Source of the DNA: Minutocellus sp. GHC0000111
Taxonomy: Eukaryota
DNA: 64,000 nt
Direction: 5' to 3'
Assembly: GCA_977018835.1 (NCBI GenBank)
Contig: OZ361257.1
Location: forward strand, 4,774,001-4,838,000
The position numbers and the translations under genes are program-made. Numbering within the stretch: the first letter of the stretch is position 1; each line of letters opens with the position of its first letter. The notes under the pieces were generated by a model that saw only the letters and a list, made by a program, of their open reading frames with translations, did no database searches and had not been told where the DNA came from. This document shows positions 978 to 56,112 of the stretch, piece by piece.

Positions 978-989
978 CGTCCCTCCCGC

Positions 990-8365: not shown

Positions 8366-8484
8366 GTTCTCACTCGTCACGCAAGAAAAACCGACACATC
8401 TTCAATCGGCCAAAACGACCGTTTCTTTCGACAATATTGGAACGACGATCCAATCTTTTCCCCGGAAGTCCTGACCAGATCGAC
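8365..8484 (+). mobile_element. Inverted 120-bp fragment of the element 5' UTR
   Basis: Reverse complement of 2372-2491, including the copy A deletion junction. Confidence 0.9.
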
Positions 8485-32400: not shown

Positions 32401-35400
32401 TGCTTTTCCCAACGCTGCTGGCGACGCCCACACCACCCACAAAGATGAGTGCTTTGGCTGCAGTGCAATCACAGGACACTGCTCACCACATGCATTCCTT
32501 GCTGCTCTCACATGGCAATGAATGGAACATAAGCTTTGGTAGAGATCAGGGTGCTGCTATGGTCAAACATGAATTGCTCCAGTTAGGAGCGCCCTAGTTT
32601 TCCCAACGCTGCTGGCGACGCCCACACCACCCACAAAGATGCGTGCTTTGGCTGCAGTGCAATCACTGGACACTGCTCACCACATGCATTCCTTTCTGCT
32701 CTCACATGGCAATGAATGGAACATAAGCTTTGGTAGAGATCAGGGTGCTGCTATGGTCAAATGTGAGTTGCTCCAGTAAGGAGCGCCCTGCTTTTCCCAA
32801 CGCTGCTGGCGACGCCCACACCACCCACAAAGATGCGTGCTTTGGCTGCAGTGCAATCACAGGACACTGCTCACCACATGCATTCCTTGCTGCTCTCACA
32901 TGGCAATGAATGGAACATAAACTTTGGTAGAGATCAGGGTGCTCCTATGGTCAAATGTGAGTTGCTCCAGTTAGGAGCGCCCTGATTTTCCCAACGCTGC
33001 TGGCGACGCCCACACCACCCACAAAGATGCGTGCTTTGGCTGCAGTGCAATCACAGGACACTGCTCACCACATGCATTCCTTGCTGCTCTCACATGGCAA
33101 TGAATGGAACATAAGCTTTGGTAGAGATCAGGGTGCTCCTATTATTGATGTAAGTTGCTCCAGTTAGGAGCGCCCTAGTTTTCCCAACGCTGCTGGCGAC
33201 GCCCACACCACCCACAAAGATGCGTGCTTTGGCTGCAGTGCAATCACAGGACACTGCTCACCACATGCATTCCTTGCTGCTCTCACATGGCAATGAATGG
33301 AACATAAGCTTTGGTAGAGATCAGGGTGCTCCTATTATTGATGTGAGTTGCTCCAGTTAGGAGCGCCCTAGTTTTCCCAACGCTGCTGGCGCCGCCCACA
33401 CCACCCACAAAGATGCATGCCTTGGCTGCAGTGCAATCACAGGACACTGCTCACCACATGCATTCCTTGCTGCTCTCACATGGCAATGAATGGAACATAA
33501 GCTTTGGTAGAGATCAGGGTGCTGCTATGGTCAAATGTGAGTTGCTCCAGTTAGGAGAGCACTGATTTTCCCAACACTGCTGGCTGGCGACTAACCAACA
33601 ACCCACAAAGATGAGTGCTTTGGCTGCAGTGCAATCACAGGACACTGCTCACCACATGCATTCCTTGCTGCTCTCACATGGCAATGAATGGAACATAAGC
33701 TTTGGTAGAGATCAGGGTGCTCCTATGGTCAAATGTGAGTTGCTCCAGTTTGGAGAGCACTGATTTTCCCAACGCTGCTTGCTGGCGACTCCCCAACAAC
33801 CCACAAAGATGAGTGCTTTGGCTGCAGTGCAATCACAGGACACTGCTCACCACATGCATTCCTTGCTGCTCTCACATGGCAATGAATGGAACATAAGCTT
33901 TGGTAGAGATCAGGGTGCTCCTATTATTGATGTGAGTTGCTCCAGTTAGGAGCGCCCTAGTTTTCCCAACGCTGCTGGCGACGCCCACAAAGATGAGTGC
34001 TTTGGCTGCAGTGCAATCACAGGACACTGCTCACCACATGCATTCCTTGCTGCTCTCACATGGCAATGAAGGAACATAAGCTTTGGTAGAGATCAGGGTG
34101 CTCCTGTGGTGACAACTGAGTTGCTCCAGTTAGGAGCGCCCTAGTTTTCCCAATGCTGCTGGTGACGCCCACACCACCCACAAAGATGCATGCTTTGGCT
34201 GCAGTGCAATCACAGGACACTGCTCACCACATGCATTCCTTGCTGCTCTCACATGGCAATGAATGGAACATAAGCTTTGGTAGAGATCAGGGTGCTCCTA
34301 TGGTCAAACATGAGTTGCTCCAGTTAGGAGAGCACTGATTTTCCCAACGCTGCTGGCTGGCGACTCCCCAACCACCCACAAAGATGCATGCTTTGGCTGC
34401 AGTGCAATCACAGGACACTGCTCACCACATGCATTCCTTGCTGCTCTCACATGGCAATGAATGGAACACAAGCTTTGGCAGAGATCAGGGCACTCCTATG
34501 GTCAAATGTGAGTTGCTCCAGATAGTACAGCCCTAGTTTTCCCAACGCTGCTGGCGACACCCACACCACCCACAAAGATGCGTGCTTTGGCTGCAGTGCA
34601 ATCACAGGACACTGCTCACCACATGCATTCCTTGCTGCTCTCACATGGCAATGAATGGAACATAAGCTTTGGTAGAGATCAGGGTGCTGCTATGGTCAAA
34701 TGTGAGTTGCTCCAGTTAGGACAGCCCTAGCTTTCCCAACGCTGCTTTTGACGCCCACACCACCCACAAAGATGCGTGCTTTGGCTGCAGTGCAATCACA
34801 GGACACTGCTCACCACATGCATTCCTTGCTGCTCTCACATGGCAATGAATGGAACATAAGCTTTGGTAGAGATCAGGGTGCTGCTATGGTCAAATATGAG
34901 TTGCTCCAGTTAGGACAGCCCTAACTTTCCCAACGCTGCTGGTGACGCCCACACCACCCACAAAGATGCGTGCTTTGGCTGCAGTGCAATCACAGGACAC
35001 TGCTCAACACATGCATTCCTTGCTGCTCTCACATGGCAATGAATGGAACATAAGCTTTGGTAGAGATCAGGGTGCTCCTATTGTCAAATGTGAGTTGATC
35101 CAGTTAGGACAGCCCTAACTTTCCCAACGCTGCTGGCGACGCCCACACCACCCACAAAGATGCGTGCTTTGGCTGCAGTGCAATCACAGGACACTGCTCA
35201 ACACATGCATTCGTTGCTGCTCTCACATGGCAATGAATGGAACATAAGCTTTGGTAGAGATCAGGGTGCTCCTATTGTCAAATGTGAGTTGATCCAGTTA
35301 GGAGCGACCCCTAGCTTTCCCAACGCTGCTGGCGACACCCACACCAGCCACAAAGATGCGTGCTTTGGCTGCAGTGCAATCACAGGACACTGCTCAACAC

Positions 35401-38400
35401 ATGCATTCCTTGCTGCTCTCACATGGCAATGAATGGAACATAAGCTTTGGTAGAGATCAGGGTGCTCCTATGGTCAAATGTGAGTTGCCCCAGTTAGGAG
35501 CGCCCTAGTTGTCCCAACGCTGCTGCTGGCGATGCCCACGCCACCCACATAGATGAGTGCTTTGGCTGCAGTGCAATCACTGGACACTGCTCACCACATG
35601 CATTTCTTGCGAGGAGCGCCCTGGCTTTCCTAACGCTGCTGGCGACCCCACACCACCCACAAAGATGCGTGCTTTGGCTGCAGTGCAATCACTGGACACT
35701 GCTCACCACATGCATTTCTTGCTGCTCTCACATTGTAATGAATGGAACATAAGCTTTGGTAGAGATCAGGGTGCTCCTATGGTCAAATGTGAGTTGCTCC
35801 AGTTAGGAGCGCCATAGCTTTCCCAACGCTGCTGGCGACGCCCACACCACCCACAAAGATGAGTGCTTTGGCTGCAGTGCAATCACAGGACACTGCTCAC
35901 CACATGCATTCCTTGCTGCTCTCACATGGCAATGAATGGAACATAAGCTTTGGTAGAGATCAGGGTGCTCCTATGGTCAAATGTGAGTTGCTCCAGTTAG
36001 GAGCGCCCCCTAGCTTTCCCAACGCTGCTGGCGACACCCACACCACCCACAAAGATGCGTGCTTTGGCTGCAGTGCAATCACAGGACACTGCTCACCACA
36101 TGCATTCCTTGCTGCTCTCACATGGCAATGAATGGAACATAAGCTTTGGTAGAGATCAGGGTGCTCCTATGGTCAAATGTGAGTTGCTCCAGTTAGGAGC
36201 GCCCCCTAGCTTTCCCAACGCTGCTGGCGACACCCACACCACCCACAAAGATGCGTGCTTTGGCTGCAGTGCAATCACAGGACACTGCTCACCACATGCA
36301 TTTCTTGCTGCTCTCACATGGCAATGAATGGAACATAAGCTTTGGTAGAGATCAGGTTGCTGCTATGGTCAAATGTGAGTTGCTCCAGTAAGGAGCGCCC
36401 TAGTTGTCCCAACGCTGCTGCTGGCGATGCCCACGCCACCCACATAGATGAGTGCTTTGGCTGCAGTGCAATCACAGGACACTGCTCACCACATGAATTT
36501 CTTGCTGCTCTCACATTGTAATGAATGGAGCATAAGCTTTGGTAGAGATCAGGGTGCTCCTATGGTCAAACATGAGTTGCTCCAGTTAGGAGCGCCCTAG
36601 TTTTTCCAACGCTGCTGGCGACGCCCGCACCACCCACAAAGATGCGTGCTTTGGCTGCAGTGCAATCACAGGACACTGCTCACCACATGCATTTCTTGCT
36701 GCTCTCACATGGCAATGAATGGAACATAAGCTTTGGTAGAGATCAGGTTGCTGCTATGGTCAAATGTGAGTTGCTCCAGTAAGGAGCGCCCTAGTTGTCC
36801 CAACGCTGCTGCTGGCGATGCCCACGCCACCCACATAGATGAGTGCTTTTGCTGCAGTGCAATCACAGGACACTGCTCACCACATGCATTCCTTGCTGCT
36901 CTCACATGGCAATGAATGGAACATAAGCTTTGGTAGAGATCAGGGTGCTCCTATTATTGATGTGAGTTGCTCCAGTTAGGAGCGCCCTAGTTTTCCCAAC
37001 GCTGCTGGCGACGCCCACAAAGATGAGTGCTTTGGCTGCAGTGCAATCACAGGACACTGCTCACCACATGCATTCCTTGCTGCTCTCACATGGCAATGAA
37101 GGAACATAAGCTTTGGTAGAGATCAGGGTGCTCCTGTGGTGACAACTGAGTTGCTCCAGTTAGGAGCGCCCTAGTTTTCCCAATGCTGCTGGTGACGCCC
37201 ACACCACCCACAAAGATGCATGCTTTGGCTGCAGTGCAATCACAGGACACTGCTCACCACATGCATTCCTTGCTGCTCTCACATGGCAATGAATGGAACA
37301 TAAGCTTTGGTAGAGATCAGGGTGCTCCTATGGTCAAACATGAGTTGCTCCAGTTAGGAGAGCACTGATTTTCCCAACGCTGCTGGCTGGCGACTCCCCA
37401 ACCACCCACAAAGATGCATGCTTTGGCTGCAGTGCAATCACAGGACACTGCTCACCACATGCATTCCTTGCTGCTCTCACATGGCAATGAATGGAACACA
37501 AGCTTTGGCAGAGATCAGGGCACTCCTATGGTCAAATGTGAGTTGCTCCAGATAGTACAGCCCTAGTTTTCCCAACGCTGCTGGCGACACCCACACCACC
37601 CACAAAGATGCGTGCTTTGGCTGCAGTGCAATCACAGGACACTGCTCACCACATGCATTCCTTGCTGCTCTCACATGGCAATGAATGGAACATAAGCTTT
37701 GGTAGAGATCAGGGTGCTGCTATGGTCAAATGTGAGTTGCTCCAGTTAGGACAGCCCTAGCTTTCCCAACGCTGCTTTTGACGCCCACACCACCCACAAA
37801 GATGCGTGCTTTGGCTGCAGTGCAATCACAGGACACTGCTCACCACATGCATTCCTTGCTGCTCTCACATGGCAATGAATGGAACATAAGCTTTGGTAGA
37901 GATCAGGGTGCTGCTATGGTCAAATATGAGTTGCTCCAGTTAGGACAGCCCTAACTTTCCCAACGCTGCTGGTGACGCCCACACCACCCACAAAGATGCG
38001 TGCTTTGGCTGCAGTGCAATCACAGGACACTGCTCAACACATGCATTCCTTGCTGCTCTCACATGGCAATGAATGGAACATAAGCTTTGGTAGAGATCAG
38101 GGTGCTCCTATTGTCAAATGTGAGTTGATCCAGTTAGGACAGCCCTAACTTTCCCAACGCTGCTGGCGACGCCCACACCACCCACAAAGATGCGTGCTTT
38201 GGCTGCAGTGCAATCACAGGACACTGCTCAACACATGCATTCGTTGCTGCTCTCACATGGCAATGAATGGAACATAAGCTTTGGTAGAGATCAGGGTGCT
38301 CCTATTGTCAAATGTGAGTTGATCCAGTTAGGAGCGACCCCTAGCTTTCCCAACGCTGCTGGCGACACCCACACCAGCCACAAAGATGCGTGCTTTGGCT

Positions 38401-39971
38401 GCAGTGCAATCACAGGACACTGCTCAACACATGCATTCCTTGCTGCTCTCACATGGCAATGAATGGAACATAAGCTTTGGTAGAGATCAGGGTGCTCCTA
38501 TGGTCAAATGTGAGTTGCCCCAGTTAGGAGCGCCCTAGTTGTCCCAACGCTGCTGCTGGCGATGCCCACGCCACCCACATAGATGAGTGCTTTGGCTGCA
38601 GTGCAATCACTGGACACTGCTCACCACATGCATTTCTTGCGAGGAGCGCCCTGGCTTTCCTAACGCTGCTGGCGACCCCACACCACCCACAAAGATGCGT
38701 GCTTTGGCTGCAGTGCAATCACTGGACACTGCTCACCACATGCATTTCTTGCTGCTCTCACATTGTAATGAATGGAACATAAGCTTTGGTAGAGATCAGG
38801 GTGCTCCTATGGTCAAATGTGAGTTGCTCCAGTTAGGAGCGCCATAGCTTTCCCAACGCTGCTGGCGACGCCCACACCACCCACAAAGATGAGTGCTTTG
38901 GCTGCAGTGCAATCACAGGACACTGCTCACCACATGCATTCCTTGCTGCTCTCACATGGCAATGAATGGAACATAAGCTTTGGTAGAGATCAGGGTGCTC
39001 CTATGGTCAAATGTGAGTTGCTCCAGTTAGGAGCGCCCCCTAGCTTTCCCAACGCTGCTGGCGACACCCACACCACCCACAAAGATGCGTGCTTTGGCTG
39101 CAGTGCAATCACAGGACACTGCTCACCACATGCATTCCTTGCTGCTCTCACATGGCAATGAATGGAACATAAGCTTTGGTAGAGATCAGGGTGCTCCTAT
39201 GGTCAAATGTGAGTTGCTCCAGTTAGGAGCGCCCCCTAGCTTTCCCAACGCTGCTGGCGACACCCACACCACCCACAAAGATGCGTGCTTTGGCTGCAGT
39301 GCAATCACAGGACACTGCTCACCACATGCATTTCTTGCTGCTCTCACATGGCAATGAATGGAACATAAGCTTTGGTAGAGATCAGGTTGCTGCTATGGTC
39401 AAATGTGAGTTGCTCCAGTAAGGAGCGCCCTAGTTGTCCCAACGCTGCTGCTGGCGATGCCCACGCCACCCACATAGATGAGTGCTTTGGCTGCAGTGCA
39501 ATCACAGGACACTGCTCACCACATGAATTTCTTGCTGCTCTCACATTGTAATGAATGGAGCATAAGCTTTGGTAGAGATCAGGGTGCTCCTATGGTCAAA
39601 CATGAGTTGCTCCAGTTAGGAGCGCCCTAGTTTTTCCAACGCTGCTGGCGACGCCCGCACCACCCACAAAGATGCGTGCTTTGGCTGCAGTGCAATCACA
39701 GGACACTGCTCACCACATGCATTTCTTGCTGCTCTCACATGGCAATGAATGGAACATAAGCTTTGGTAGAGATCAGGGTGCTCCTATTATTGATGTTAGT
39801 TGCTCCAGTTAGGAGCGCCCTGATTTTCCCAACGCTGCTGGCGACGCCCACACCACCCACAAAGATGCGTGCTTTGGCTGCAGTGCAATCACAGGACACT
39901 GCTCACCACATGCATTCCTTGCTGCTCTCACATGGCAATGAATGGAACATAAGCTTTGGTAGAGATCAGGG
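8483..39971 (+). repeat. Main Sat-A array, ~160 monomers of ~194 bp (variants up to 198 bp, some deleted units) with higher-order duplications
   Basis: Period 194 (e.g. GATGCGTGCT at 11161 and 11355); nearly every unit carries CTGCAG, ATGCAT and AAGCTT. Confidence 0.97.
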
Positions 39972-40226: not shown

Positions 40227-43200
40227 CTACATGTAAGTAGACTGGTCGCATGTCGTCATGGTAGCGGGCGGGATTGTGCTTTTTAAAATAATTTGCGCTC
40301 CTTTCCGCCAGCACACCTGGAATTGTCGTTGCTCCATGCGATCTTGGACCCAGTAGAATCTCATGTCCATAGCCTTAGACCGTCTTTGCTTGACGGTTTT
40401 ATTGGCGATTCCAGATGCTGTAGAGTTGTCAACGACGACAGCAGTAGGGGGTTGCGGGTGACCCATTTCTTCTAGTGCTGCCCGGATTGGTGCTGCATCT
40501 TTCATGTTGAAAAATAGTCCTCCCAATTCGGCTTCAGCGGCTGAGGACATTGCATGCTTGATGATGTTGGCATTGACGAGGATGGCTCCATTCATTGGTG
40601 GCATGGGATCACTTGAGTCAGGCTGGCGGTGCGGGTCCTTAGGTCGGGAGCTTAGGTAGAAGTGCCCTCTGAGCTTGCTTCTTGATTTCGGGGCTGATAA
40701 GTGGGAGGCGTCGCTATGTACATGTGGGATCATGTCTGACTTGACGTGTCGAATGACTGCGTCGGGATGGGTTGCAAGGTAATCTAGAAGCTTCTTGGCA
40801 TCTTGTCGAGTGCGCTCGGTAGCTTTGGATTGTTCCGCTGAGATGCTGTTGAGCGCCGGTAAAATTGTTGAATCAATTGCTCGACCATAGCACAAGGAGC
40901 TGCCCACCACCTGTTGAATTTTGTTGATGCCTTTGGCGTCGAGTGGTGGTGAGTCGTCTTCCGGTTCTGGCAGCTGGGGTCCCGGGCCATACGTCGGATG
41001 ATTCCATCGACATGGCGCATGCTCGGGCCGTGAGGGGCGGTCGTGTTGGAACTTGTGGCGCATCTCCTTGACGTAGTTAGGCATAGATAGATCCACCCAT
41101 TTGGCCTCGTAGTTCCACTCGAGTTGAACACCACAATAAAGTCGGCCTTCCCAATCGGTAGTGATCTTATACTTGGAGTTGAGGGCCTGAATGAGATGGT
41201 CTGCATGCTCTTTCCCGACATGCTTTGCTCCAAAATCGTCAACGGTTAGGCAAAAGGTAATTGGGCGGGTTTTGTGCCTCCAAAGGCCGGCAGTTCGCTT
41301 GCATGGGAAATAGCCATGGGGTTTGAGATGCTTGACAAGTTGATCGTAGGCTAGGCGCCCTGCCTGGGGTAATCCATGCATTCCGCCATCGATTCTGACC
41401 AATACTCGACCATTCTTTACTTTGTCGTGGAGGTCGTAGGCTTCCATGACTTTGTCGGGGATGAGAGCTACTGGCGCCCACATCCATTCTGGCTCTGGCA
41501 TGGTGCTATTGAGATAGAAGTCACTGATATCAATTCCCATGAAACGAGCGTTGTCTGTAGAGATGACGCTGTTGAAAAGTAACTTTGCAGTCAACATTTC
41601 AGCGGTCGGGGTCGAGACTGTACCAGGGTAATGAATTTTGTCGCCTCCTGCAGTCCATCGAACTCGATTGGGATTTGGTTTATGGGAGCGATAGTCGGCG
41701 ACAATGCGGAGGTATGTGGCTTTTTTCCCCCGAGGCAGTTCGGACCAGTGGACGAAAGCCATTGTATTGGAGGGAATGCTAGCACTGTTTCCAACTCGGC
41801 CGTCCGTTAGCCGTCCAATTTCATCGATGTTTGCTTGAATGAATTGGTCCCTCATGTTCGTTTTGAGGAGGTCGCGGTATTCAAGCATTGCACCAGTGTC
41901 GGGATGGACGACGGCGTTAGCAAAGTGTTGGAGGTTTGGTAAAGGCGAGAAAGCTGCCATGTTGGCCACGTGGTGGGTGCTACGACGAGATGATGGCCGT
42001 GGGGGAGGGTTCCGATGTGGAATGTACCCTCGCTGACGGTATGATCGTCGTCGAGGTGGTTTGGCGGTCGATGGTTTGGACTTGCTTGTCGATTTTGCTG
42101 GAGCTGGTAATGTTGGAGTGGCATCGATCGTTGGAGACTTGCGTTTACGTTGCCGACGGGAGGTGGGGGCATTGGAACTTTGATTGGATGTTACGACGGT
42201 TGCATCGTCGCCGTTGGGCTCGTCTACTGCAACCAAAGGATTGTAGCAGTTGGAAGAAACTGACGAGCGAGGTGGCGCGTTGGATCGACGTGATCGACGG
42301 CTTTTAGTGGTGGCTGCATCATATGTGGAGGATTTTGCCACCCTCGGAGGTTGCTGGGGCTGAGGTAACGGAGCGTTGGGGTTGGAGACAAGGTGACGGC
42401 CTGCTTCAGTCTCGTTCATCTCTTCTACGTCGTCGTCCTCGTATTTGATTTTGTAGTGCTTATACTTCTTGTCAAATGCAACGACTCTACCCTTGTAATT
42501 GCGATCTCCAAACACTTTGGCGACGATGGTACCGTGGCCGAATCGTTGGGAGTCGTCATCGTTCTCCAGCACCCTCGGAGCTGCGGTTGTCTGCATCGTC
42601 TCATCAGAGGCGGAGGTGGCAGATTCTGCTGGGGTCACTCTGTTGAAAATCTCGGAGAGCTTTTCTAAAGCTTGACGATGCTCGTCTCGAAGGGGAGCAA
42701 GGGGTGCCGCTGGATGTGGATTCTGTAGAGCGTGCAGGAGTTCATGAGCTGCGACTATTGCTGCATCGGCCGACGACGTTTTGGGTACCGGAATCATTTT
42801 GGGGAGCCAGACGAGTGTGTTACCAGTGCGTTCCGCCCGAGTTTCCTCAATCCAAACCTTGTAACACCGGTAGTGTTCCATGGCTGGACCGACATAGTAC
42901 CCATCAACGCCATGCGGGGACCAAGAGCCGCGTGCCGAGGGCATCTCGTGAAAGATGACCTTGCATCCGAGGGGGCCGAGAGGCGTGCGATTGAAATCAA
43001 AGCCGCCATTGAGTTGCTCGTACGCTGATAGTCGAGGGTTGACTCGGGATGCTCTCAGGAAATTGAGGGTCATTACCGCCTGCTCCAGCAATTTATCCCA
43101 CAAGATGAGGGGAAAGTCGGGATCGGTACCACAGAGAATCGCAATGAAATGATTCTTAAAGGTTCGAATGGCTCGTTCGGCCGCATTTCGGCGGTGGGAG

Positions 43201-44354
43201 TGCGTTGGGGTCAATTGAAAATCTACATCCTTTTCTTCCATGAACTCCTTCAGCTCTCGACTCACTTCATTATCCAATCGTTGCAATTTTGGGCGAAATC
43301 CTCGCTTGGAGAGGTATTCGAAAATAGTTTGGTACGCTCGGCGCATTTCCGTTCCCGATCGGCTTTTCATTGGTTCGGCCAAGATGCTGTTGGAGTCATA
43401 GTCATAGACGACCATTATGTGCTGGTGGCCAGAAATAGACGATACCAAGAAACGGCCGGGCTGATCTGAGAAGATCTGGCCCGTTATGTCATGACAATCA
43501 GCAAAGACATAGTTGGTGCGCTGTTGGTGTTGTGCCGGGTGGAGATCCTGCTCGGTTTCGTCCACCCCAGGGAGAGATTTTGGCGTAGCCATCGACCGTT
43601 TGGGCTTGGTCGACCTGATGTTCTTGCGCTGCTGGTCTAAGTGACCTTTAATCATCGGCATCGACTGTGGCATGTGCTTACGTACAAGCTTTGATGTGAG
43701 GCCTGGCCAAGATCTATAAAATCCCGCATCGATTGCTTTGCACCAGGTAGATAGCTGAGGACTGCCAGCGCACCAATGTAAAAAGGCTACACGTTCCGGA
43801 ACCGTCTCCTGGGCAATTGCGGCGTTGGCAGCATGTTGGATGACGTTGGGGCCGGGGAGCGGCGACATGGTGGGCGAGCAATTAAGATCTACCATCCACA
43901 ATTTCGTTGAGGGGTCTCGTTTACCTTGCAAAATGACGGTGTTGTCCTTGGCGATGACTACCGAATCCTTATCGAAAGTGGCAACACATCCATCGTCACA
44001 CAGCTGCCCAATCGATAGGAGCGATGATGCCATATTGTTGAAAATATAGGCCTTGCTAGCCGATGGGGAAACCCCAGGGAGGCGAAGCGTGGCCTCGTGG
44101 GTGTTCGTCATTGTGCTGTTATCCGGAAGGGTGACGCTGATAGGAATTGCTGTCTGTTGGACGCTGAAAATAGGGCCATCGTACGATAGGTATTGGGGCT
44201 TCTGGACAAAATGTCCCGTCGTTCCAGTATCTGCTGCGAGGACGATTGGCTCTTGAGTTGGAGGTTTGCTTTTTGACGTAAGAAAAGCTAACGAAGGCGG
44301 GGAGGAGGTGGATTCAGATATGCTATCCTCTGTTTTATACTGATTAATATCCAC
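40227..44354 (-). CDS. pol: Pol polyprotein, copy B (PR-IN-Tudor-like-RT-RNase H); probably inactivated
   Basis: Protease ADTGTTGHF; integrase SDQPG / RLDNE / NAAERAIRTFKNHF; RT IDISDFYL, GLPQAG, VDDFG; RNase H HSDAS, AEAE, VDN. Frameshift near the C-terminus (~40291-40297). Confidence 0.93.
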   Translation of the reverse strand: MDINQYKTEDSISESTSSPPSLAFLTSKSKPPTQEPIVLAADTGTTGHFVQKPQYLSYDGPIFSVQQTAIPISVTLPDNSTMTNTHEATLRLPGVSPSASKAYIFNNMASSLLSIGQLCDDGCVATFDKDSVVIAKDNTVILQGKRDPSTKLWMVDLNCSPTMSPLPGPNVIQHAANAAIAQETVPERVAFLHWCAGSPQLSTWCKAIDAGFYRSWPGLTSKLVRKHMPQSMPMIKGHLDQQRKNIRSTKPKRSMATPKSLPGVDETEQDLHPAQHQQRTNYVFADCHDITGQIFSDQPGRFLVSSISGHQHIMVVYDYDSNSILAEPMKSRSGTEMRRAYQTIFEYLSKRGFRPKLQRLDNEVSRELKEFMEEKDVDFQLTPTHSHRRNAAERAIRTFKNHFIAILCGTDPDFPLILWDKLLEQAVMTLNFLRASRVNPRLSAYEQLNGGFDFNRTPLGPLGCKVIFHEMPSARGSWSPHGVDGYYVGPAMEHYRCYKVWIEETRAERTGNTLVWLPKMIPVPKTSSADAAIVAAHELLHALQNPHPAAPLAPLRDEHRQALEKLSEIFNRVTPAESATSASDETMQTTAAPRVLENDDDSQRFGHGTIVAKVFGDRNYKGRVVAFDKKYKHYKIKYEDDDVEEMNETEAGRHLVSNPNAPLPQPQQPPRVAKSSTYDAATTKSRRSRRSNAPPRSSVSSNCYNPLVAVDEPNGDDATVVTSNQSSNAPTSRRQRKRKSPTIDATPTLPAPAKSTSKSKPSTAKPPRRRSYRQRGYIPHRNPPPRPSSRRSTHHVANMAAFSPLPNLQHFANAVVHPDTGAMLEYRDLLKTNMRDQFIQANIDEIGRLTDGRVGNSASIPSNTMAFVHWSELPRGKKATYLRIVADYRSHKPNPNRVRWTAGGDKIHYPGTVSTPTAEMLTAKLLFNSVISTDNARFMGIDISDFYLNSTMPEPEWMWAPVALIPDKVMEAYDLHDKVKNGRVLVRIDGGMHGLPQAGRLAYDQLVKHLKPHGYFPCKRTAGLWRHKTRPITFCLTVDDFGAKHVGKEHADHLIQALNSKYKITTDWEGRLYCGVQLEWNYEAKWVDLSMPNYVKEMRHKFQHDRPSRPEHAPCRWNHPTYGPGPQLPEPEDDSPPLDAKGINKIQQVVGSSLCYGRAIDSTILPALNSISAEQSKATERTRQDAKKLLDYLATHPDAVIRHVKSDMIPHVHSDASHLSAPKSRSKLRGHFYLSSRPKDPHRQPDSSDPMPPMNGAILVNANIIKHAMSSAAEAELGGLFFNMKDAAPIRAALEEMGHPQPPTAVVVDNSTASGIANKTVKQRRSKAMDMRFYWVQDRMEQRQFQVCWRKGAQIILKSTIPPATMTTCDQSTYM

Positions 44355-44366
44355 CGTCCCTCCCGC

Positions 44367-45647
44367 TCAGTTACGACGCGAGCTACCACCGCAAGGATTG
44401 TACTTGGTGGCGTTATCAACGTGGTTGGGCCCTTTGCAAGTGCATTCAAAGCTGGGGTGGTTGGACGAATAGCCGCACGTGTGGCAATAATGGCCTCTGG
44501 GGAGGATCGACTGCAGTTCCCGCTTCTCCTGGTGGTTGAGGTTAGGACCTTGGCCTGGGAAGTGGCCGGCGCCGTTCTGCTGGCCACCGCCGCGGTAGCC
44601 TCCACTGCCACCAGTGTGGTTGCGTCCCTCACGCAGAACGCGGTTCTCGGCCTTGAGTGAAGCTATTTCTTGGCGAAGTTTGGCAATGGTGTCATCCTTC
44701 TCGTTGCTCTTTTTGGCGAGGTTCGCCATCATGGCTTGGTTGGTCTTGAGGGCTTCGGTGGTATCAGCCAAAAGGAGATCGGCTCGAGAAAGAAATGGAT
44801 CGTCCGAGGCCGATGAGGCCAAATTCGCGCCATGATATCCTGCCGCTTCGGTGGTGGTATTGGCCATCTTCTTATCACACCAATCGCGGAAGTCCGACTG
44901 CATGTTGGCCCACGTGCGTTCGGCCTCCGGTCTGTCGTCCCAGTCCTCGCATGCCTTCTTTGCCAATGAGAACCTGCGCACGGAGCGGTAGAACTTGGAG
45001 ACCTTTTGCTTGTTGGTGAAGGGTTCGCCGGCCGTTTCAAACGCCTTGAAGACTTTGTTGAATATGGCGATGTGGGTGTCGATGGGTCCCCCGTCGTGCT
45101 GCTTCTCGAGCTGCTTCTCTAATTCCTCCTTCTGAGTCTCGTTGAATTTCAAGTAGCGATCGGCAATGCTGTCGATGATTTGGCGGATGGTGACTGGCTG
45201 GAAACCGAGCATGTCATCTTCGAGATGATTGATGTAGACGGCGTCGATCGAGTCGAGGAGGAGATTCTTGATCGCCGTGTTGACTTGCTCGTGCAAGTTG
45301 TAGTGGCCCTTTTCGATGTGATGTCCCCGGATTGCACGATCGCGTTGGTCTAGATTGGCCACGGCGGGAATGGTGGGGCTGGGGCCAGGATTTGCCGGAG
45401 GCACATGTGGTCGGCCGTTACTTTTGGTGGTGTGTTCGGCATCGCTGACGACGAGGCCCAAATGGCCGAGGTCATGGTCATTGTGCCCTGCTGGAATGCT
45501 GGCCGCCGCTTGTTGAAGTTCCTTGAGAGCTTTGGCAACACGCTCGCGTTGGGGAGGTTGTCCTGGGTCATTCATACGTGTGATTAACTTGGTGGGGAGA
45601 ATCGGCGCTGCGCCGAGAGGTTGGCCAAAAGCTGCGTTGGGATTCAC
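44367..45647 (-). CDS. gag: Gag, copy B (426 aa; ORF opens at GTG)
   Basis: N-terminal GHLGLV motif, coiled-coil segment, Gly-rich linker and C-terminal zinc knuckle YCHTCGYSSNHPSFEC...H; lies between the 5' LTR and pol. Confidence 0.88.
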   Translation of the reverse strand: MNPNAAFGQPLGAAPILPTKLITRMNDPGQPPQRERVAKALKELQQAAASIPAGHNDHDLGHLGLVVSDAEHTTKSNGRPHVPPANPGPSPTIPAVANLDQRDRAIRGHHIEKGHYNLHEQVNTAIKNLLLDSIDAVYINHLEDDMLGFQPVTIRQIIDSIADRYLKFNETQKEELEKQLEKQHDGGPIDTHIAIFNKVFKAFETAGEPFTNKQKVSKFYRSVRRFSLAKKACEDWDDRPEAERTWANMQSDFRDWCDKKMANTTTEAAGYHGANLASSASDDPFLSRADLLLADTTEALKTNQAMMANLAKKSNEKDDTIAKLRQEIASLKAENRVLREGRNHTGGSGGYRGGGQQNGAGHFPGQGPNLNHQEKRELQSILPRGHYCHTCGYSSNHPSFECTCKGPNHVDNATKYNPCGGSSRRN

Positions 45648-45925
45648 GCTGGTGTTTCAGTCAGCGAAGACAGTCAGCACGGCGGTGTTGCTGCGAGACG
45701 TGTGATCGACAGAAGGTTCGATCCAGAGAAGTGTGATCGATTGGATGGGTCGATCTGGTCAGGACTTCCGGGGAAAAGATTGGATCGTCGTTCCAATATT
45801 GTCGAAAGAAACGGTCGTTTTGGCCGATTGAAGATGTGTCGGTTTTTCTTGCGTGACGAGTGAGAACCCAAGACAAACCGGTGAGGTGCGAACCGAAATG
45901 GGGCGAGCACAGGTGGAAAAGATGT

Positions 45926-45937: not shown

Positions 45938-46133
45938 TGCTAAGAGGTCCTAAAGCTAAGCTAGATAGATATAGCTAGTAGAGGTTAATAGGACCTACGT
46001 AGATGAAAAATGGGCCATCGGAGATGTCGTTGGGCCATGGATCAAGGGTCAGGAGAGGGCACTGAGTCAGTGGTCTGATCACCGTACGTACCGTACGTAT
46101 GTATACGTACGTAAGTATCCCACGGTATCAACA
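45938..46133 (-). repeat. 5' LTR, copy B (196 bp)
   Basis: Direct repeat of 39972-40167 with 11 substitutions (counted by eye). Confidence 0.95.
46060..46114. promoter_or_regulatory. Putative bZIP-type sites in U3 (CACTGAGTCAGTG and clustered TACGTA)
   Basis: AP-1/GCN4-type TGAGTCA core in a 13-bp dyad, plus repeated ACGT cores in the U3 part of the LTR; function inferred only. Confidence 0.35.
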
Positions 46134-49950: not shown

Positions 49951-50146
49951 TGCTAAGAGGTCCTAAAGCTAAGCTAGATAGATATAGCTAGTAGAGGTTA
50001 GTAGGACCTACGTAGATGAAAATTGGGCCATCGGAGATGTCGTTGGCCCATGGATCAATTGTCAGGAGAGGGCACTGAGTCAGTGGTCTGATCACCGTAA
50101 GTACTGTACGAATATATACGTACGTACGTATCCCACGGTGTCAACA
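49951..50146 (-). repeat. 3' LTR, copy C
   Basis: Same as the copy B 3' LTR. Confidence 0.95.
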
Positions 50147-50205
50147 CCCCCTCGCAGATCAATGACTAGTGCCATTGAATCTACATGTAGAGTCCTAATT
50201 GGAAT

Positions 50206-53200
50206 CTACATGTAAGTAGACTGGTCGCATGTCGTCATGGTAGCGGGCGGGATTGTGCTTTTTAAAATAATTTGCGCTCCTTTCCGCCAGCACACCTGGA
50301 ATTGTCGTTGCTCCATGCGATCTTGGACCCAGTAGAATCTCATGTCCATAGCCTTAGACCGTCTTTGCTTGACGGTTTTATTGGCGATTCCAGATGCTGT
50401 AGAGTTGTCAACGACGACAGCAGTAGGGGGTTGCGGGTGACCCATTTCTTCTAGTGCTGCCCGGATTGGTGCTGCATCTTTCATGTTGAAAAATAGTCCT
50501 CCCAATTCGGCTTCAGCGGCTGAGGACATTGCATGCTTGATGATGTTGGCATTGACGAGGATGGCTCCATTCATTGGTGGCATGGGATCACTTGAGTCAG
50601 GCTGGCGGTGCGGGTCCTTAGGTCGGGAGCTTAGGTAGAAGTGCCCTCTGAGCTTGCTTCTTGATTTCGGGGCTGATAAGTGGGAGGCGTCGCTATGTAC
50701 ATGTGGGATCATGTCTGACTTGACGTGTCGAATGACTGCGTCGGGATGGGTTGCAAGGTAATCTAGAAGCTTCTTGGCATCTTGTCGAGTGCGCTCGGTA
50801 GCTTTGGATTGTTCCGCTGAGATGCTGTTGAGCGCCGGTAAAATTGTTGAATCAATTGCTCGACCATAGCACAAGGAGCTGCCCACCACCTGTTGAATTT
50901 TGTTGATGCCTTTGGCGTCGAGTGGTGGTGAGTCGTCTTCCGGTTCTGGCAGCTGGGGTCCCGGGCCATACGTCGGATGATTCCATCGACATGGCGCATG
51001 CTCGGGCCGTGAGGGGCGGTCGTGTTGGAACTTGTGGCGCATCTCCTTGACGTAGTTAGGCATAGATAGATCCACCCATTTGGCCTCGTAGTTCCACTCG
51101 AGTTGAACACCACAATAAAGTCGGCCTTCCCAATCGGTAGTGATCTTATACTTGGAGTTGAGGGCCTGAATGAGATGGTCTGCATGCTCTTTCCCGACAT
51201 GCTTTGCTCCAAAATCGTCAACGGTTAGGCAAAAGGTAATTGGGCGGGTTTTGTGCCTCCAAAGGCCGGCAGTTCGCTTGCATGGGAAATAGCCATGGGG
51301 TTTGAGATGCTTGACAAGTTGATCGTAGGCTAGGCGCCCTGCCTGGGGTAATCCATGCATTCCGCCATCGATTCTGACCAATACTCGACCATTCTTTACT
51401 TTGTCGTGGAGGTCGTAGGCTTCCATGACTTTGTCGGGGATGAGAGCTACTGGCGCCCACATCCATTCTGGCTCTGGCATGGTGCTATTGAGATAGAAGT
51501 CACTGATATCAATTCCCATGAAACGAGCGTTGTCTGTAGAGATGACGCTGTTGAAAAGTAACTTTGCAGTCAACATTTCAGCGGTCGGGGTCGAGACTGT
51601 ACCAGGGTAATGAATTTTGTCGCCTCCTGCAGTCCATCGAACTCGATTGGGATTTGGTTTATGGGAGCGATAGTCGGCGACAATGCGGAGGTATGTGGCT
51701 TTTTTCCCCCGAGGCAGTTCGGACCAGTGGACGAAAGCCATTGTATTGGAGGGAATGCTAGCACTGTTTCCAACTCGGCCGTCCGTTAGCCGTCCAATTT
51801 CATCGATGTTTGCTTGAATGAATTGGTCCCTCATGTTCGTTTTGAGGAGGTCGCGGTATTCAAGCATTGCACCAGTGTCGGGATGGACGACGGCGTTAGC
51901 AAAGTGTTGGAGGTTTGGTAAAGGCGAGAAAGCTGCCATGTTGGCCACGTGGTGGGTGCTACGACGAGATGATGGCCGTGGGGGAGGGTTCCGATGTGGA
52001 ATGTACCCTCGCTGACGGTATGATCGTCGTCGAGGTGGTTTGGCGGTCGATGGTTTGGACTTGCTTGTCGATTTTGCTGGAGCTGGTAATGTTGGAGTGG
52101 CATCGATCGTTGGAGACTTGCGTTTACGTTGCCGACGGGAGGTGGGGGCATTGGAACTTTGATTGGATGTTACGACGGTTGCATCGTCGCCGTTGGGCTC
52201 GTCTACTGCAACCAAAGGATTGTAGCAGTTGGAAGAAACTGACGAGCGAGGTGGCGCGTTGGATCGACGTGATCGACGGCTTTTAGTGGTGGCTGCATCA
52301 TATGTGGAGGATTTTGCCACCCTCGGAGGTTGCTGGGGCTGAGGTAACGGAGCGTTGGGGTTGGAGACAAGGTGACGGCCTGCTTCAGTCTCGTTCATCT
52401 CTTCTACGTCGTCGTCCTCGTATTTGATTTTGTAGTGCTTATACTTCTTGTCAAATGCAACGACTCTACCCTTGTAATTGCGATCTCCAAACACTTTGGC
52501 GACGATGGTACCGTGGCCGAATCGTTGGGAGTCGTCATCGTTCTCCAGCACCCTCGGAGCTGCGGTTGTCTGCATCGTCTCATCAGAGGCGGAGGTGGCA
52601 GATTCTGCTGGGGTCACTCTGTTGAAAATCTCGGAGAGCTTTTCTAAAGCTTGACGATGCTCGTCTCGAAGGGGAGCAAGGGGTGCCGCTGGATGTGGAT
52701 TCTGTAGAGCGTGCAGGAGTTCATGAGCTGCGACTATTGCTGCATCGGCCGACGACGTTTTGGGTACCGGAATCATTTTGGGGAGCCAGACGAGTGTGTT
52801 ACCAGTGCGTTCCGCCCGAGTTTCCTCAATCCAAACCTTGTAACACCGGTAGTGTTCCATGGCTGGACCGACATAGTACCCATCAACGCCATGCGGGGAC
52901 CAAGAGCCGCGTGCCGAGGGCATCTCGTGAAAGATGACCTTGCATCCGAGGGGGCCGAGAGGCGTGCGATTGAAATCAAAGCCGCCATTGAGTTGCTCGT
53001 ACGCTGATAGTCGAGGGTTGACTCGGGATGCTCTCAGGAAATTGAGGGTCATTACCGCCTGCTCCAGCAATTTATCCCACAAGATGAGGGGAAAGTCGGG
53101 ATCGGTACCACAGAGAATCGCAATGAAATGATTCTTAAAGGTTCGAATGGCTCGTTCGGCCGCATTTCGGCGGTGGGAGTGCGTTGGGGTCAATTGAAAA

Positions 53201-54333
53201 TCTACATCCTTTTCTTCCATGAACTCCTTCAGCTCTCGACTCACTTCATTATCCAATCGTTGCAATTTTGGGCGAAATCCTCGCTTGGAGAGGTATTCGA
53301 AAATAGTTTGGTACGCTCGGCGCATTTCCGTTCCCGATCGGCTTTTCATTGGTTCGGCCAAGATGCTGTTGGAGTCATAGTCATAGACGACCATTATGTG
53401 CTGGTGGCCAGAAATAGACGATACCAAGAAACGGCCGGGCTGATCTGAGAAGATCTGGCCCGTTATGTCATGACAATCAGCAAAGACATAGTTGGTGCGC
53501 TGTTGGTGTTGTGCCGGGTGGAGATCCTGCTCGGTTTCGTCCACCCCAGGGAGAGATTTTGGCGTAGCCATCGACCGTTTGGGCTTGGTCGACCTGATGT
53601 TCTTGCGCTGCTGGTCTAAGTGACCTTTAATCATCGGCATCGACTGTGGCATGTGCTTACGTACAAGCTTTGATGTGAGGCCTGGCCAAGATCTATAAAA
53701 TCCCGCATCGATTGCTTTGCACCAGGTAGATAGCTGAGGACTGCCAGCGCACCAATGTAAAAAGGCTACACGTTCCGGAACCGTCTCCTGGGCAATTGCG
53801 GCGTTGGCAGCATGTTGGATGACGTTGGGGCCGGGGAGCGGCGACATGGTGGGCGAGCAATTAAGATCTACCATCCACAATTTCGTTGAGGGGTCTCGTT
53901 TACCTTGCAAAATGACGGTGTTGTCCTTGGCGATGACTACCGAATCCTTATCGAAAGTGGCAACACATCCATCGTCACACAGCTGCCCAATCGATAGGAG
54001 CGATGATGCCATATTGTTGAAAATATAGGCCTTGCTAGCCGATGGGGAAACCCCAGGGAGGCGAAGCGTGGCCTCGTGGGTGTTCGTCATTGTGCTGTTA
54101 TCCGGAAGGGTGACGCTGATAGGAATTGCTGTCTGTTGGACGCTGAAAATAGGGCCATCGTACGATAGGTATTGGGGCTTCTGGACAAAATGTCCCGTCG
54201 TTCCAGTATCTGCTGCGAGGACGATTGGCTCTTGAGTTGGAGGTTTGCTTTTTGACGTAAGAAAAGCTAACGAAGGCGGGGAGGAGGTGGATTCAGATAT
54301 GCTATCCTCTGTTTTATACTGATTAATATCCAC
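50206..54333 (-). CDS. pol: Pol polyprotein, copy C; probably inactivated
   Basis: Translation matches copy B Pol, including the C-terminal frameshift. Confidence 0.93.
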   Translation of the reverse strand: MDINQYKTEDSISESTSSPPSLAFLTSKSKPPTQEPIVLAADTGTTGHFVQKPQYLSYDGPIFSVQQTAIPISVTLPDNSTMTNTHEATLRLPGVSPSASKAYIFNNMASSLLSIGQLCDDGCVATFDKDSVVIAKDNTVILQGKRDPSTKLWMVDLNCSPTMSPLPGPNVIQHAANAAIAQETVPERVAFLHWCAGSPQLSTWCKAIDAGFYRSWPGLTSKLVRKHMPQSMPMIKGHLDQQRKNIRSTKPKRSMATPKSLPGVDETEQDLHPAQHQQRTNYVFADCHDITGQIFSDQPGRFLVSSISGHQHIMVVYDYDSNSILAEPMKSRSGTEMRRAYQTIFEYLSKRGFRPKLQRLDNEVSRELKEFMEEKDVDFQLTPTHSHRRNAAERAIRTFKNHFIAILCGTDPDFPLILWDKLLEQAVMTLNFLRASRVNPRLSAYEQLNGGFDFNRTPLGPLGCKVIFHEMPSARGSWSPHGVDGYYVGPAMEHYRCYKVWIEETRAERTGNTLVWLPKMIPVPKTSSADAAIVAAHELLHALQNPHPAAPLAPLRDEHRQALEKLSEIFNRVTPAESATSASDETMQTTAAPRVLENDDDSQRFGHGTIVAKVFGDRNYKGRVVAFDKKYKHYKIKYEDDDVEEMNETEAGRHLVSNPNAPLPQPQQPPRVAKSSTYDAATTKSRRSRRSNAPPRSSVSSNCYNPLVAVDEPNGDDATVVTSNQSSNAPTSRRQRKRKSPTIDATPTLPAPAKSTSKSKPSTAKPPRRRSYRQRGYIPHRNPPPRPSSRRSTHHVANMAAFSPLPNLQHFANAVVHPDTGAMLEYRDLLKTNMRDQFIQANIDEIGRLTDGRVGNSASIPSNTMAFVHWSELPRGKKATYLRIVADYRSHKPNPNRVRWTAGGDKIHYPGTVSTPTAEMLTAKLLFNSVISTDNARFMGIDISDFYLNSTMPEPEWMWAPVALIPDKVMEAYDLHDKVKNGRVLVRIDGGMHGLPQAGRLAYDQLVKHLKPHGYFPCKRTAGLWRHKTRPITFCLTVDDFGAKHVGKEHADHLIQALNSKYKITTDWEGRLYCGVQLEWNYEAKWVDLSMPNYVKEMRHKFQHDRPSRPEHAPCRWNHPTYGPGPQLPEPEDDSPPLDAKGINKIQQVVGSSLCYGRAIDSTILPALNSISAEQSKATERTRQDAKKLLDYLATHPDAVIRHVKSDMIPHVHSDASHLSAPKSRSKLRGHFYLSSRPKDPHRQPDSSDPMPPMNGAILVNANIIKHAMSSAAEAELGGLFFNMKDAAPIRAALEEMGHPQPPTAVVVDNSTASGIANKTVKQRRSKAMDMRFYWVQDRMEQRQFQVCWRKGAQIILKSTIPPATMTTCDQSTYM

Positions 54334-54345
54334 CGTCCCTCCCGC

Positions 54346-55626
54346 TCAGTTACGACGCGAGCTACCACCGCAAGGATTGTACTTGGTGGCGTTATCAACG
54401 TGGTTGGGCCCTTTGCAAGTGCATTCAAAGCTGGGGTGGTTGGACGAATAGCCGCACGTGTGGCAATAATGGCCTCTGGGGAGGATCGACTGCAGTTCCC
54501 GCTTCTCCTGGTGGTTGAGGTTAGGACCTTGGCCTGGGAAGTGGCCGGCGCCGTTCTGCTGGCCACCGCCGCGGTAGCCTCCACTGCCACCAGTGTGGTT
54601 GCGTCCCTCACGCAGAACGCGGTTCTCGGCCTTGAGTGAAGCTATTTCTTGGCGAAGTTTGGCAATGGTGTCATCCTTCTCGTTGCTCTTTTTGGCGAGG
54701 TTCGCCATCATGGCTTGGTTGGTCTTGAGGGCTTCGGTGGTATCAGCCAAAAGGAGATCGGCTCGAGAAAGAAATGGATCGTCCGAGGCCGATGAGGCCA
54801 AATTCGCGCCATGATATCCTGCCGCTTCGGTGGTGGTATTGGCCATCTTCTTATCACACCAATCGCGGAAGTCCGACTGCATGTTGGCCCACGTGCGTTC
54901 GGCCTCCGGTCTGTCGTCCCAGTCCTCGCATGCCTTCTTTGCCAATGAGAACCTGCGCACGGAGCGGTAGAACTTGGAGACCTTTTGCTTGTTGGTGAAG
55001 GGTTCGCCGGCCGTTTCAAACGCCTTGAAGACTTTGTTGAATATGGCGATGTGGGTGTCGATGGGTCCCCCGTCGTGCTGCTTCTCGAGCTGCTTCTCTA
55101 ATTCCTCCTTCTGAGTCTCGTTGAATTTCAAGTAGCGATCGGCAATGCTGTCGATGATTTGGCGGATGGTGACTGGCTGGAAACCGAGCATGTCATCTTC
55201 GAGATGATTGATGTAGACGGCGTCGATCGAGTCGAGGAGGAGATTCTTGATCGCCGTGTTGACTTGCTCGTGCAAGTTGTAGTGGCCCTTTTCGATGTGA
55301 TGTCCCCGGATTGCACGATCGCGTTGGTCTAGATTGGCCACGGCGGGAATGGTGGGGCTGGGGCCAGGATTTGCCGGAGGCACATGTGGTCGGCCGTTAC
55401 TTTTGGTGGTGTGTTCGGCATCGCTGACGACGAGGCCCAAATGGCCGAGGTCATGGTCATTGTGCCCTGCTGGAATGCTGGCCGCCGCTTGTTGAAGTTC
55501 CTTGAGAGCTTTGGCAACACGCTCGCGTTGGGGAGGTTGTCCTGGGTCATTCATACGTGTGATTAACTTGGTGGGGAGAATCGGCGCTGCGCCGAGAGGT
55601 TGGCCAAAAGCTGCGTTGGGATTCAC
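54346..55626 (-). CDS. gag: Gag, copy C
   Basis: Translation matches copy B Gag. Confidence 0.88.
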   Translation of the reverse strand: MNPNAAFGQPLGAAPILPTKLITRMNDPGQPPQRERVAKALKELQQAAASIPAGHNDHDLGHLGLVVSDAEHTTKSNGRPHVPPANPGPSPTIPAVANLDQRDRAIRGHHIEKGHYNLHEQVNTAIKNLLLDSIDAVYINHLEDDMLGFQPVTIRQIIDSIADRYLKFNETQKEELEKQLEKQHDGGPIDTHIAIFNKVFKAFETAGEPFTNKQKVSKFYRSVRRFSLAKKACEDWDDRPEAERTWANMQSDFRDWCDKKMANTTTEAAGYHGANLASSASDDPFLSRADLLLADTTEALKTNQAMMANLAKKSNEKDDTIAKLRQEIASLKAENRVLREGRNHTGGSGGYRGGGQQNGAGHFPGQGPNLNHQEKRELQSILPRGHYCHTCGYSSNHPSFECTCKGPNHVDNATKYNPCGGSSRRN

Positions 55627-55916
55627 GCTGGTGTTTCAGTCAGCGAAGACAGTCAGCACGGCGGTGTTGCTGCGAGACGTGTGATCGACAGAAGGTTCGA
55701 TCCAGAGAAGTGTGATCGATTGGATGGGTCGATCTGGTCAGGACTTCCGGGGAAAAGATTGGATCGTCGTTCCAATATTGTCGAAAGAAACGGTCGTTTT
55801 GGCCGATTGAAGATGTGTCGGTTTTTCTTGCGTGACGAGTGAGAACCCAAGACAAACCGGTGAGGTGCGAACCGAAATGGGGCGAGCACAGGTGGAAAAG
55901 ATGTATCACGTAGGTC

Positions 55917-56112
55917 TGCTAAGAGGTCCTAAAGCTAAGCTAGATAGATATAGCTAGTAGAGGTTAATAGGACCTACGTAGATGAAAAATGGGCCATCGG
56001 AGATGTCGTTGGGCCATGGATCAACGGTCAGGAGAGGGCACTGAGTCAGTGGTCTGATCACCGTACGTACCGTACGTATGTATACGTACGTAAGTATCCC
56101 ACGGTATCAACA
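55917..56112 (-). repeat. 5' LTR, copy C
   Basis: Same as the copy B 5' LTR except CAACGG vs CAAGGG. Confidence 0.95.

What the first reader, a model, noticed from the sequence alone, without database searches (positions are those of the whole stretch)
40227..45647. TpA-targeted substitution (TA->CA/TG), the reverse of RIP, across the coding region
Seen: many residues depart from the expected copia/CoDi motifs, and the codons I checked are one TpA transition away: GMHGL (CAT for TAT), DASHL (CAC), IRHV (CAC), MIPH (CCA for CTA), FGAKH (GCA, CAT), KHAMSS (GCA), WTAGG (GCA), QVCW (TGC), LCYG (TGC), APCRW (TGT), HQHIM (CAC). CpG remains plentiful, so this is neither CpG decay nor RIP. Such changes cannot create new stops, which may be why a dead element keeps long ORFs. 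Ancestral residues are inferred from remembered motifs. Inference: a repeat-directed A->G mutator at TpA acting on both strands (adenine modification/deamination or biased repair), possibly genome defence. Caveat: the LTRs keep many TpA.
Basis: partly seen in the sequence, partly recalled or inferred. Interest (0 to 1): 0.8.

Follow-up and report, generated by a model that had tools for sequence, protein, structure and literature searches.

The report
TpA hypermutation of diatom-type retrotransposon
A broken copia-type jumping gene and its sister copies have had many of their T-A steps changed to T-G or C-A, copy by copy and on both DNA strands, a rare mutation pattern that likely marks a host DNA-editing defence so far described in one unrelated alga.

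Summary
Against an intact 85-88% relative, 24 of 205 TpA bases changed versus 10 of 1134 other T-context bases (p=3e-13). In 33 sister Gag copies, 95 of 696 TpA copy-sites changed versus 33 of 8472, and one tyrosine codon reads His in some copies and Cys in others, so both DNA strands are hit, separately per copy. The target is narrower than TpA: the mutated A is mostly followed by C or T (22 of 23 read-level sites). The load is partial (55% of Gag tyrosines) and bulk TpA O/E misses it. The signature matches the TpA hypermutation reported in Bigelowiella natans (bioRxiv 2026); my searches found no report in diatoms. This scan noted it before on other DNA (94 notes, diatom genomes, context rule included). 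The nearest named relative is a diatom Gag (54%), but the runs holding the element are mostly sponge samples, so the host is open. Unexplained: the two LTRs keep their most mutable TpA steps. Sparing of host genes and the enzyme were not testable. Likely mechanism: a TadA/ADAT-like DNA adenine deaminase acting on silenced repeats.

The parts
45938..46133 (-). 5' LTR, 196 bp, TG..CA ends; keeps 23 TpA steps, 10 of them in the most mutable R-TA-Y context
44367..45656 (-). gag frame ending in an in-frame TGA directly before pol; 7 of 16 family tyrosine columns read His or Cys here; the codon at which sister copies start is not Met
40227..44366 (-). pol frame, order protease-integrase-RT-RNase H (motifs read from sequence; RVT_2 hit E 2.5e-5, below Pfam's cut-off); 26 TpA-type changes against P0001 (16 sense T>C, 10 sense A>G); frame breaks near the end of RNase H
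42405..42533 (-). Tudor domain (PF21743) between integrase and RT, shared with P0001, P0002, P0004
39972..40167 (-). 3' LTR, 11 differences from the 5' LTR (7 transversions, 2 TA/TG, 1 CG/TG, 1 other transition), preceded by a short purine run
39967..39971 (+). 5-bp target-site duplication, repeated at 46134-46138, inside a satellite unit
   Evidence: (read from sequence)
49951..56112 (-). second full copy, 1 difference from the first; part of a 9.9-kb duplication of array plus element, not an independent insertion
4289..7391 (-). 3' half copy (1 difference) carried with about 1.1 kb of the same satellite flank
1..2491 (-). 5' part copy, identical over 2491 bases
8483..39966 (+). about 194-bp satellite array that holds the insertion (continues 46139-49950, 56113-59875); its one A-TA-T column segregates TA 14, TG 56, CA 39, CG 0 among 110 distinct units

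Best explanation
Copies of this copia family carry A-to-G changes at T-A steps on both DNA strands, mostly where the A is followed by C or T, and different copies carry different changes; the likely cause is a host DNA adenine deaminase of the TadA/ADAT type that acts on silenced mobile DNA after insertion. Shown: the spectrum, the two-strand symmetry, the flank rule (R-TA-Y fastest, TA-R slow), copy-private accumulation and uneven load between copies. Inferred: A is deaminated to hypoxanthine in transiently unpaired DNA and fixed as G at replication; tyrosines and other TpA codons are lost, the proteins die, and no stops arise. Inferred, untested: restriction to repeats, a defensive role, and a diatom host.
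For: Window vs P0001: 24 of 205 vs 10 of 1134, p=2.6e-13. 33 of 33 sister Gag proteins aligned: 95 of 696 TpA copy-sites vs 33 of 8472 other T and 5 of 2671 CpG; distinct site-alleles 23 of 30 vs 22 of 361, p=7e-19. 16 tyrosine columns in 34 copies: Tyr 171, Cys 121, His 88, Arg 1, Phe 1; conserved Pro 0 of 338, Cys 0 of 136, Gly 4 of 542, Ala 1 of 600 changed. At R-TA-Y, where both strands offer T-A-Y, the strands are equal (72 vs 76); at Y-TA-Y they are 49 vs 12 (p=2.5e-5; by column p=0.007). Pol: 16/57, 6/48, 4/53, 0/14 for RTAY, YTAY, RTAR, YTAR. Read-level: 22 of 23 mutated A followed by a pyrimidine vs 185 of 346 background, p=3e-5. Sister P0124: 7 of 12 private changes are TpA-type. Load per copy runs from 0 of 9 to 9 of 10, overdispersed, p=2e-4. 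Same signature arises de novo on integrated viral DNA in B. natans, where an ADAT2-like candidate is proposed. TadA-derived editors give genome-wide A>G/T>C at TA sites (PMC13225742, passages) and favour UACG on RNA (PMC8052359, passages).
Against: No enzyme and no host gene could be examined. The LTR pair keeps 8 of 10 informative R-TA-Y steps unchanged in both LTRs, P=0.002 at the pol rate, and has more non-TpA differences (9) than a 0.5-1% copy divergence predicts (P 0.0002-0.02), so it gives no support for change after this particular insertion. The 6.1-kb copy duplicated within the window has no TpA difference. The satellite shows no significant TpA excess by site (6 of 10 vs 28 of 83, p=0.16). 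The sister-copy spectrum is read from proteins with the window's codons as context, and sisters may be related or be one locus in two assemblies. Intact relatives come from short contigs that may be collapsed assemblies. A purine before the T raises the rate, which the TadA passages I read do not address. CpG transitions are also mildly raised.
Confidence: 0.55

Rival explanations
1. A modified base is the intermediate: A or T in TpA steps of silenced chromatin is marked (6mA, or thymine oxidised to 5-hydroxymethyl/formyl-uracil) and the mark deaminates or mispairs, giving the same TA>TG/CA end product without a dedicated editor.
For: A palindromic target and a best context that is itself palindromic (R-TA-Y, hazard 1.61 vs 0.38 at Y-TA-Y, more than twice the single-strand rate) suit a double-strand-reading enzyme. 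Diatom CoDi elements are targets of DNA methylation (PMC9998398, passages). Mispairing of oxidised thymine is recalled knowledge.
Against: Known eukaryotic 6mA lies at ApT, not TpA (recalled). No modification data could be examined. The spectrum is almost purely transitions.
Confidence: 0.2
2. A genome-wide TpA>TpG/CpA mutation bias of the host, visible here only because dead copies are free of selection; no targeting, no defence.
For: No host gene was tested. A satellite column shows the same TA/TG/CA split, so the process is not confined to the retrotransposon.
Against: TpA-rich LTRs beside the coding region are little changed. 55% of tyrosine codons are hit while other conserved residues are mostly under 1-2%, a contrast far above ordinary context bias. 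Load differs strongly between copies. In B. natans the rest of the genome is AT-biased.
Confidence: 0.15
3. A-to-I editing of the element's RNA (ADAR type) or reverse-transcriptase error, fixed at retrotransposition.
For: ADAR favours U before the edited A (stated in the preprint). Spared or chimeric LTRs and an unchanged recent duplicate fit damage that is older than this insertion. RNA runs hold the element (DNA in those libraries not excluded).
Against: Editing of the genomic RNA gives sense A>G only; here sense T>C is as common at R-TA-Y (76 vs 72) and 16 vs 10 in pol. ADAR prefers G after the A (recalled); here TAG is slow. A non-retrotransposing satellite shows the same split.
Confidence: 0.07
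4. Misread polarity: the differences are CpG decay or GC-biased gene conversion.
For: CA versus TG at one site can arise from CG; CpG transitions are raised on the window's branch; satellite CpG O/E is 0.33.
Against: Four outgroup Gags have Tyr where copies have His or Cys, and Arg (CG) appears once in 382. Conversion would not spare TpC, TpG and TpT.
Confidence: 0.03

Closest known systems
TpA>TpG/CpA hypermutation of integrated NCLDV and virophage DNA in Bigelowiella natans (Mettrop et al., bioRxiv 10.64898/2026.01.13.699255; read parts 1-3 of 5, supplements not seen)
   Same: A>G and T>C transitions at TpA on both strands of foreign-derived DNA; uneven between lineages or copies; TpA-poor coding sequences there are enriched for transposon domains.
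   Different: Here the target is a multi-copy LTR retrotransposon, in a probable diatom (stramenopile) rather than a rhizarian; a flank rule (A followed by C/T, purine before T) is measurable and is not described in the text I read; the load is cumulative, not a measured rate; LTRs appear spared; a satellite column shows the same split.
Repeat-induced point mutation (RIP) of Neurospora and other ascomycetes (recalled; abstract start seen)
   Same: Dinucleotide-specific transitions on both strands that cripple transposon copies.
   Different: Opposite polarity (RIP: CpA>TpA, makes stops and lowers GC); here TpA is consumed, CpA>TpA is rare (6 of 1516 copy-sites) and no stops can arise.
TadA-derived adenine base editor off-target spectrum (PMC13225742, PMC8052359; passages)
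   Same: A>G/T>C at TA sites in DNA; UAC core on RNA fits fast TAC.
   Different: Engineered enzymes; no natural diatom counterpart is shown; TAT is as fast as TAC here and a purine 5' of T matters.
[quoted passage not shown] 2009, PMC2806351, passages)
   Same: Element length 6162 bp and LTR 196 bp within the reported ranges (5182-8062 bp; 153-844 bp), TG/CA ends, copia domain order; Gag 54% identical to a protein labelled from a Cymatosiraceae diatom transcriptome.
   Different: Carries a Tudor domain in pol; placement in CoDiI or CoDiII was not tested because no named CoDi RT was available.

Membership tests
B. natans-type TpA hypermutation | A>G/T>C transitions concentrated on TpA | tested here: met
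B. natans-type TpA hypermutation | Both strands hit (TpG and CpA products) | tested here: met
   72 vs 76 at R-TA-Y; 16 vs 10 in pol
B. natans-type TpA hypermutation | Target is foreign or mobile DNA | tested here: met
   LTR retrotransposon
B. natans-type TpA hypermutation | Rest of the genome is spared | not testable with these tools
   No host gene in the window and no genome held; LTRs are little changed
B. natans-type TpA hypermutation | About 1000-fold raised de novo rate, active in some lines only | not testable with these tools
   Needs mutation-accumulation lines; only overdispersion between copies seen
B. natans-type TpA hypermutation | ADAT2/3-like candidate enzyme in the host | not testable with these tools
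   Host proteome not held
RIP | C>T at CpA/TpG producing TpA | tested here: not met
   1 of 322 on the window's branch; 6 of 1516 in sisters
ADAR editing fixed by reverse transcription | A>G on the sense strand only | tested here: not met
Ty1/copia LTR retrotransposon | TG..CA LTRs, 5-bp target duplication, PR-IN-RT-RH order, RVT_2-type RT | tested here: met
   RVT_2 hit is below the gathering score but 120 listed homologues mostly carry PF07727
CoDiI/CoDiII lineages | RT clusters with named CoDi references | not testable with these tools
   No named CoDi RT returned; only a diatom-labelled Gag relative

The most novel reading that the evidence does not exclude
The host is the sponge itself, which took up a diatom-type copia, and a natural DNA adenine editor with a T-A-Y target erases TpA from its retrotransposon bodies and satellite DNA while leaving LTR promoters alone: the first animal with this defence and a natural counterpart of adenine base editors.
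Probability: 0.12. Interest if true: 0.9.

Novelty: new member of a known kind. Interest (0 to 1): 0.62.

Why it matters
Almost every known mutational defence against mobile DNA turns C into T. An A-to-G process on DNA is reported in one alga, on viral inserts. This family shows it on a retrotransposon in another lineage, half-way to saturation, so rates by flank and by strand can be read from many copies, which gives a fingerprint for finding the enzyme. It also warns that such dead elements keep long reading frames and a normal bulk TpA ratio, so they can be mistaken for active ones and escape RIP-style indices. A natural DNA adenine deaminase would be of interest for genome editing.

Tried and rejected
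No whole genome is held, so TE-versus-gene spectra were not computed. Bulk TpA O/E is uninformative: 0.63 against 0.42-0.85 in 80 related loci, and the R-TA-Y share is also ordinary (0.60 vs median 0.63 in 76 of 80 loci with enough sites). The 80 metagenome loci (about 50% identity; best 80 of 275) show no such load (at most 3 TpA-type departures each vs 6 here), but they were found with peptide patterns and are short-read contigs, so this says little about their hosts. The four copies in the window are near-identical duplicates and give no spectrum. The satellite test by site is not significant (p=0.16) and copies are not independent; the second tandem repeat was cut into too few units (4) to test. 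An unbiased read-level list for LTR versus RNase H was not obtained, so LTR sparing in other copies is open; none of the 40 shown places is an LTR TpA site, but 120 were not shown. The ESM Atlas gave no usable taxa; cluster look-ups of NCBI-sourced Pol relatives gave no names. Flanking ORFs of related loci were listed but not followed. Two base-editor papers gave nothing on adenine flanks. A 2025 diatom TE preprint has no mention of TpA, RIP, hypermutation or deaminase.
Full report
Anatomy. The finding covers gag and pol of a 6162-bp Ty1/copia element on the minus strand, 39972-46133, with 196-bp TG..CA LTRs and a 5-bp target duplication inside a 194-bp satellite unit. gag (44367-45656) ends in an in-frame TGA followed directly by pol. 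Pfam gives a Tudor domain (E 7e-11) and a sub-threshold RVT_2 hit. Three more pieces in the window (49951-56112, 4289-7391, 1-2491) differ by 1, 1 and 0 bases and came with their satellite flanks, so they are duplicates and not independent. The rest of the window is tandem repeat; there is no host gene and no genome is held.

Check of the motifs. A search with pol residues 830-1360 listed 120 homologues of 1789 found. Two are less clear family-wide (20 of 120 homologues share the Ala of WTAGG; His is commonest at APCRW). Over the whole Pol the window has His or Cys for a P0001 Tyr 13 times and the reverse never occurs.

Spectrum on the window's branch. Of 1372 aligned residues 1163 are identical; of the differences up to residue 1355, 101 were assigned to the window's branch, 48 to P0001's and 42 left unpolarised. 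TpA transitions explain 24 (plus 2 ambiguous) on the window's branch and 1 on P0001's. Per opportunity: 24 of 205 TpA bases against 10 of 1134 other T contexts (p=2.6e-13); CpG 12 of 320 against 14 of 1000 other C contexts (p=0.018). So CpG decay is present but minor. Among 81 sequences scored at up to 348 conserved columns the window ranks first for TpA-type departures (6, with 0 in other T contexts), yet its bulk TpA ratio is ordinary.

Sister copies. The Gag search and cluster look-up gave 33 sister proteins (82-98% identical; 15 of the 71 members of the largest cluster were listed), most on ENA contigs of 0.2-5.2 Mb. They form one clade with the window, with private branches, while four related families have short ones. 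With the window's codons as context, 95 of 696 TpA copy-sites changed against 33 of 8472 other T and 5 of 2671 CpG; 23 of 30 TpA sites vary against 22 of 361 (stretches under 70% local identity and columns with fewer than 5 sisters were dropped). At 16 tyrosine columns the 34 copies read Tyr 171, Cys 121, His 88, Arg 1, Phe 1, while conserved Pro, Cys, Gly and Ala changed in 0 of 338, 0 of 136, 4 of 542 and 1 of 600 cells. His and Cys at the same column are the two strands' products of one TpA, so the changes arose separately in different copies. Load runs from 0 of 9 to 9 of 10 per copy (p=2e-4 for overdispersion). The Pol sister P0124 has 7 TpA-type among 12 private changes. Caveats: proteins only, sisters may share history, and I cannot show that they lie in the window's own genome.

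DNA level. Contigs of four runs were laid on the element. Of the 40 places shown (of 160, best supported first) 32 are transitions and 23 of these are TA<->TG/CA; at 16 the window still has TA, and at three steps the window has CA or TG where other contigs have the opposite.

Flank rule. Read on the strand of the mutated A, 22 of those 23 are followed by C or T, against 185 of 346 background (p=3e-5). In Gag, R-TA-Y columns are 80% changed with equal strands (72 and 76), Y-TA-Y columns 31% with 49 against 12. In pol the order is RTAY 16 of 57, YTAY 6 of 48, RTAR 4 of 53, YTAR 0 of 14. I saw this pattern before looking it up; earlier scan notes report the same rule in diatom genomes.

Against a simple story. 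The LTR pair has 2 TpA differences against 9.9 expected (P=0.0013); 8 of 10 informative R-TA-Y steps are intact in both LTRs (P=0.002 at the pol rate), and 9 non-TpA differences are more than copy divergence predicts. The RNase H end, next to the 3' LTR, has the highest load (9 of 24 vs 17 of 148, p=0.003). Either LTRs are spared, or this pair is chimeric, or the damage came from a parent copy. No gene lies beside either LTR, so nearness to genes cannot explain it. The satellite is suggestive only: R-TA-Y steps are scarce (34 vs 260 Y-TA-R) and one A-TA-T column reads TA 14, TG 56, CA 39, CG 0 in 110 distinct units, but the test by site gives p=0.16.

Host. The nearest named relative is a Gag 54% identical, labelled from a Cymatosiraceae diatom transcriptome, and the element fits the size ranges of CoDi elements (PMC2806351, passages). 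The runs that hold it are labelled sponge metagenome, marine metagenome or coded organisms. A diatom living in or on sponges (recalled as common) is my reading at about 75%; a sponge host is not excluded. A CoDi sequence in a mollusc transcriptome was put down to contamination (PMC6238403, passage).

Mechanism. Shown: transitions at TpA, both strands, flank rule, copy-private and uneven load, no stop creation. Inferred: adenine deamination in DNA by a TadA/ADAT-like enzyme on silenced repeats. It is the hypothesis of the B. natans preprint, and TadA-derived editors leave A>G/T>C at TA sites with a UAC core on RNA. Rivals are a modified-base route, an untargeted host bias and RNA editing.

Prior art. 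Mettrop et al. (bioRxiv 10.64898/2026.01.13.699255; parts 1-3 of 5 read, supplements not seen) report the same signature de novo on viral inserts in B. natans; the text has no mention of diatoms or retrotransposons by those words. Five searches and a term look-up in a 2025 diatom TE preprint found no report for diatoms or sponges; subscription journals are largely outside this library. The scan's own notes hold 94 findings with these words on other genomes and none on this genome or sequence.

Verdict. Real, well above chance, and a new member of a kind described once in print. What this locus adds is a half-saturated family in which strand and flank rates can be read from many copies, a setting inside satellite DNA, unexplained LTR sparing and an open host. 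Interest 0.62.

Noticed in passing
window 42405-42533: Tudor domain (PF21743) inserted between integrase and RT in this copia family and its three closest families; could steer insertion to marked chromatin such as the satellite.
   Followed up: no
window 39972-40167 and 45938-46133: LTRs differ by 11 bases, 7 of them transversions, though the target duplication is perfect; the copy at 4289 has the 5'-LTR base at one of these places. Suggests a chimeric LTR pair or conversion.
   Followed up: partly
window 36806-56710: 9.9-kb tandem duplication of satellite plus element with one difference inside the element; very recent array expansion or an assembly duplicate.
   Followed up: partly
window 7388-8484: Inverted 984-bp satellite block with an LTR piece, and a 120-bp inverted fragment of the element's 5' leader, at the break of a truncated copy.
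   Followed up: no
window 8483-59875: 194-bp satellite with both CpG (O/E 0.33) and TpA (0.43) depleted and CpA/TpG at 1.77; higher-order blocks of about 4.8 kb.
   Followed up: partly
window 59876-64000: A second tandem repeat of about 190 bp with strong G skew (about 0.5) on the + strand, unrelated to the first.
   Followed up: no
window 44360-44372: gag and pol lie in one frame separated by a single TGA followed by a G-rich run; readthrough or separate initiation not examined.
   Followed up: no
L032 and L047: Two related copia loci with strong CpG depletion (O/E 0.22-0.23) but intact conserved residues, unlike the other loci.
   Followed up: no
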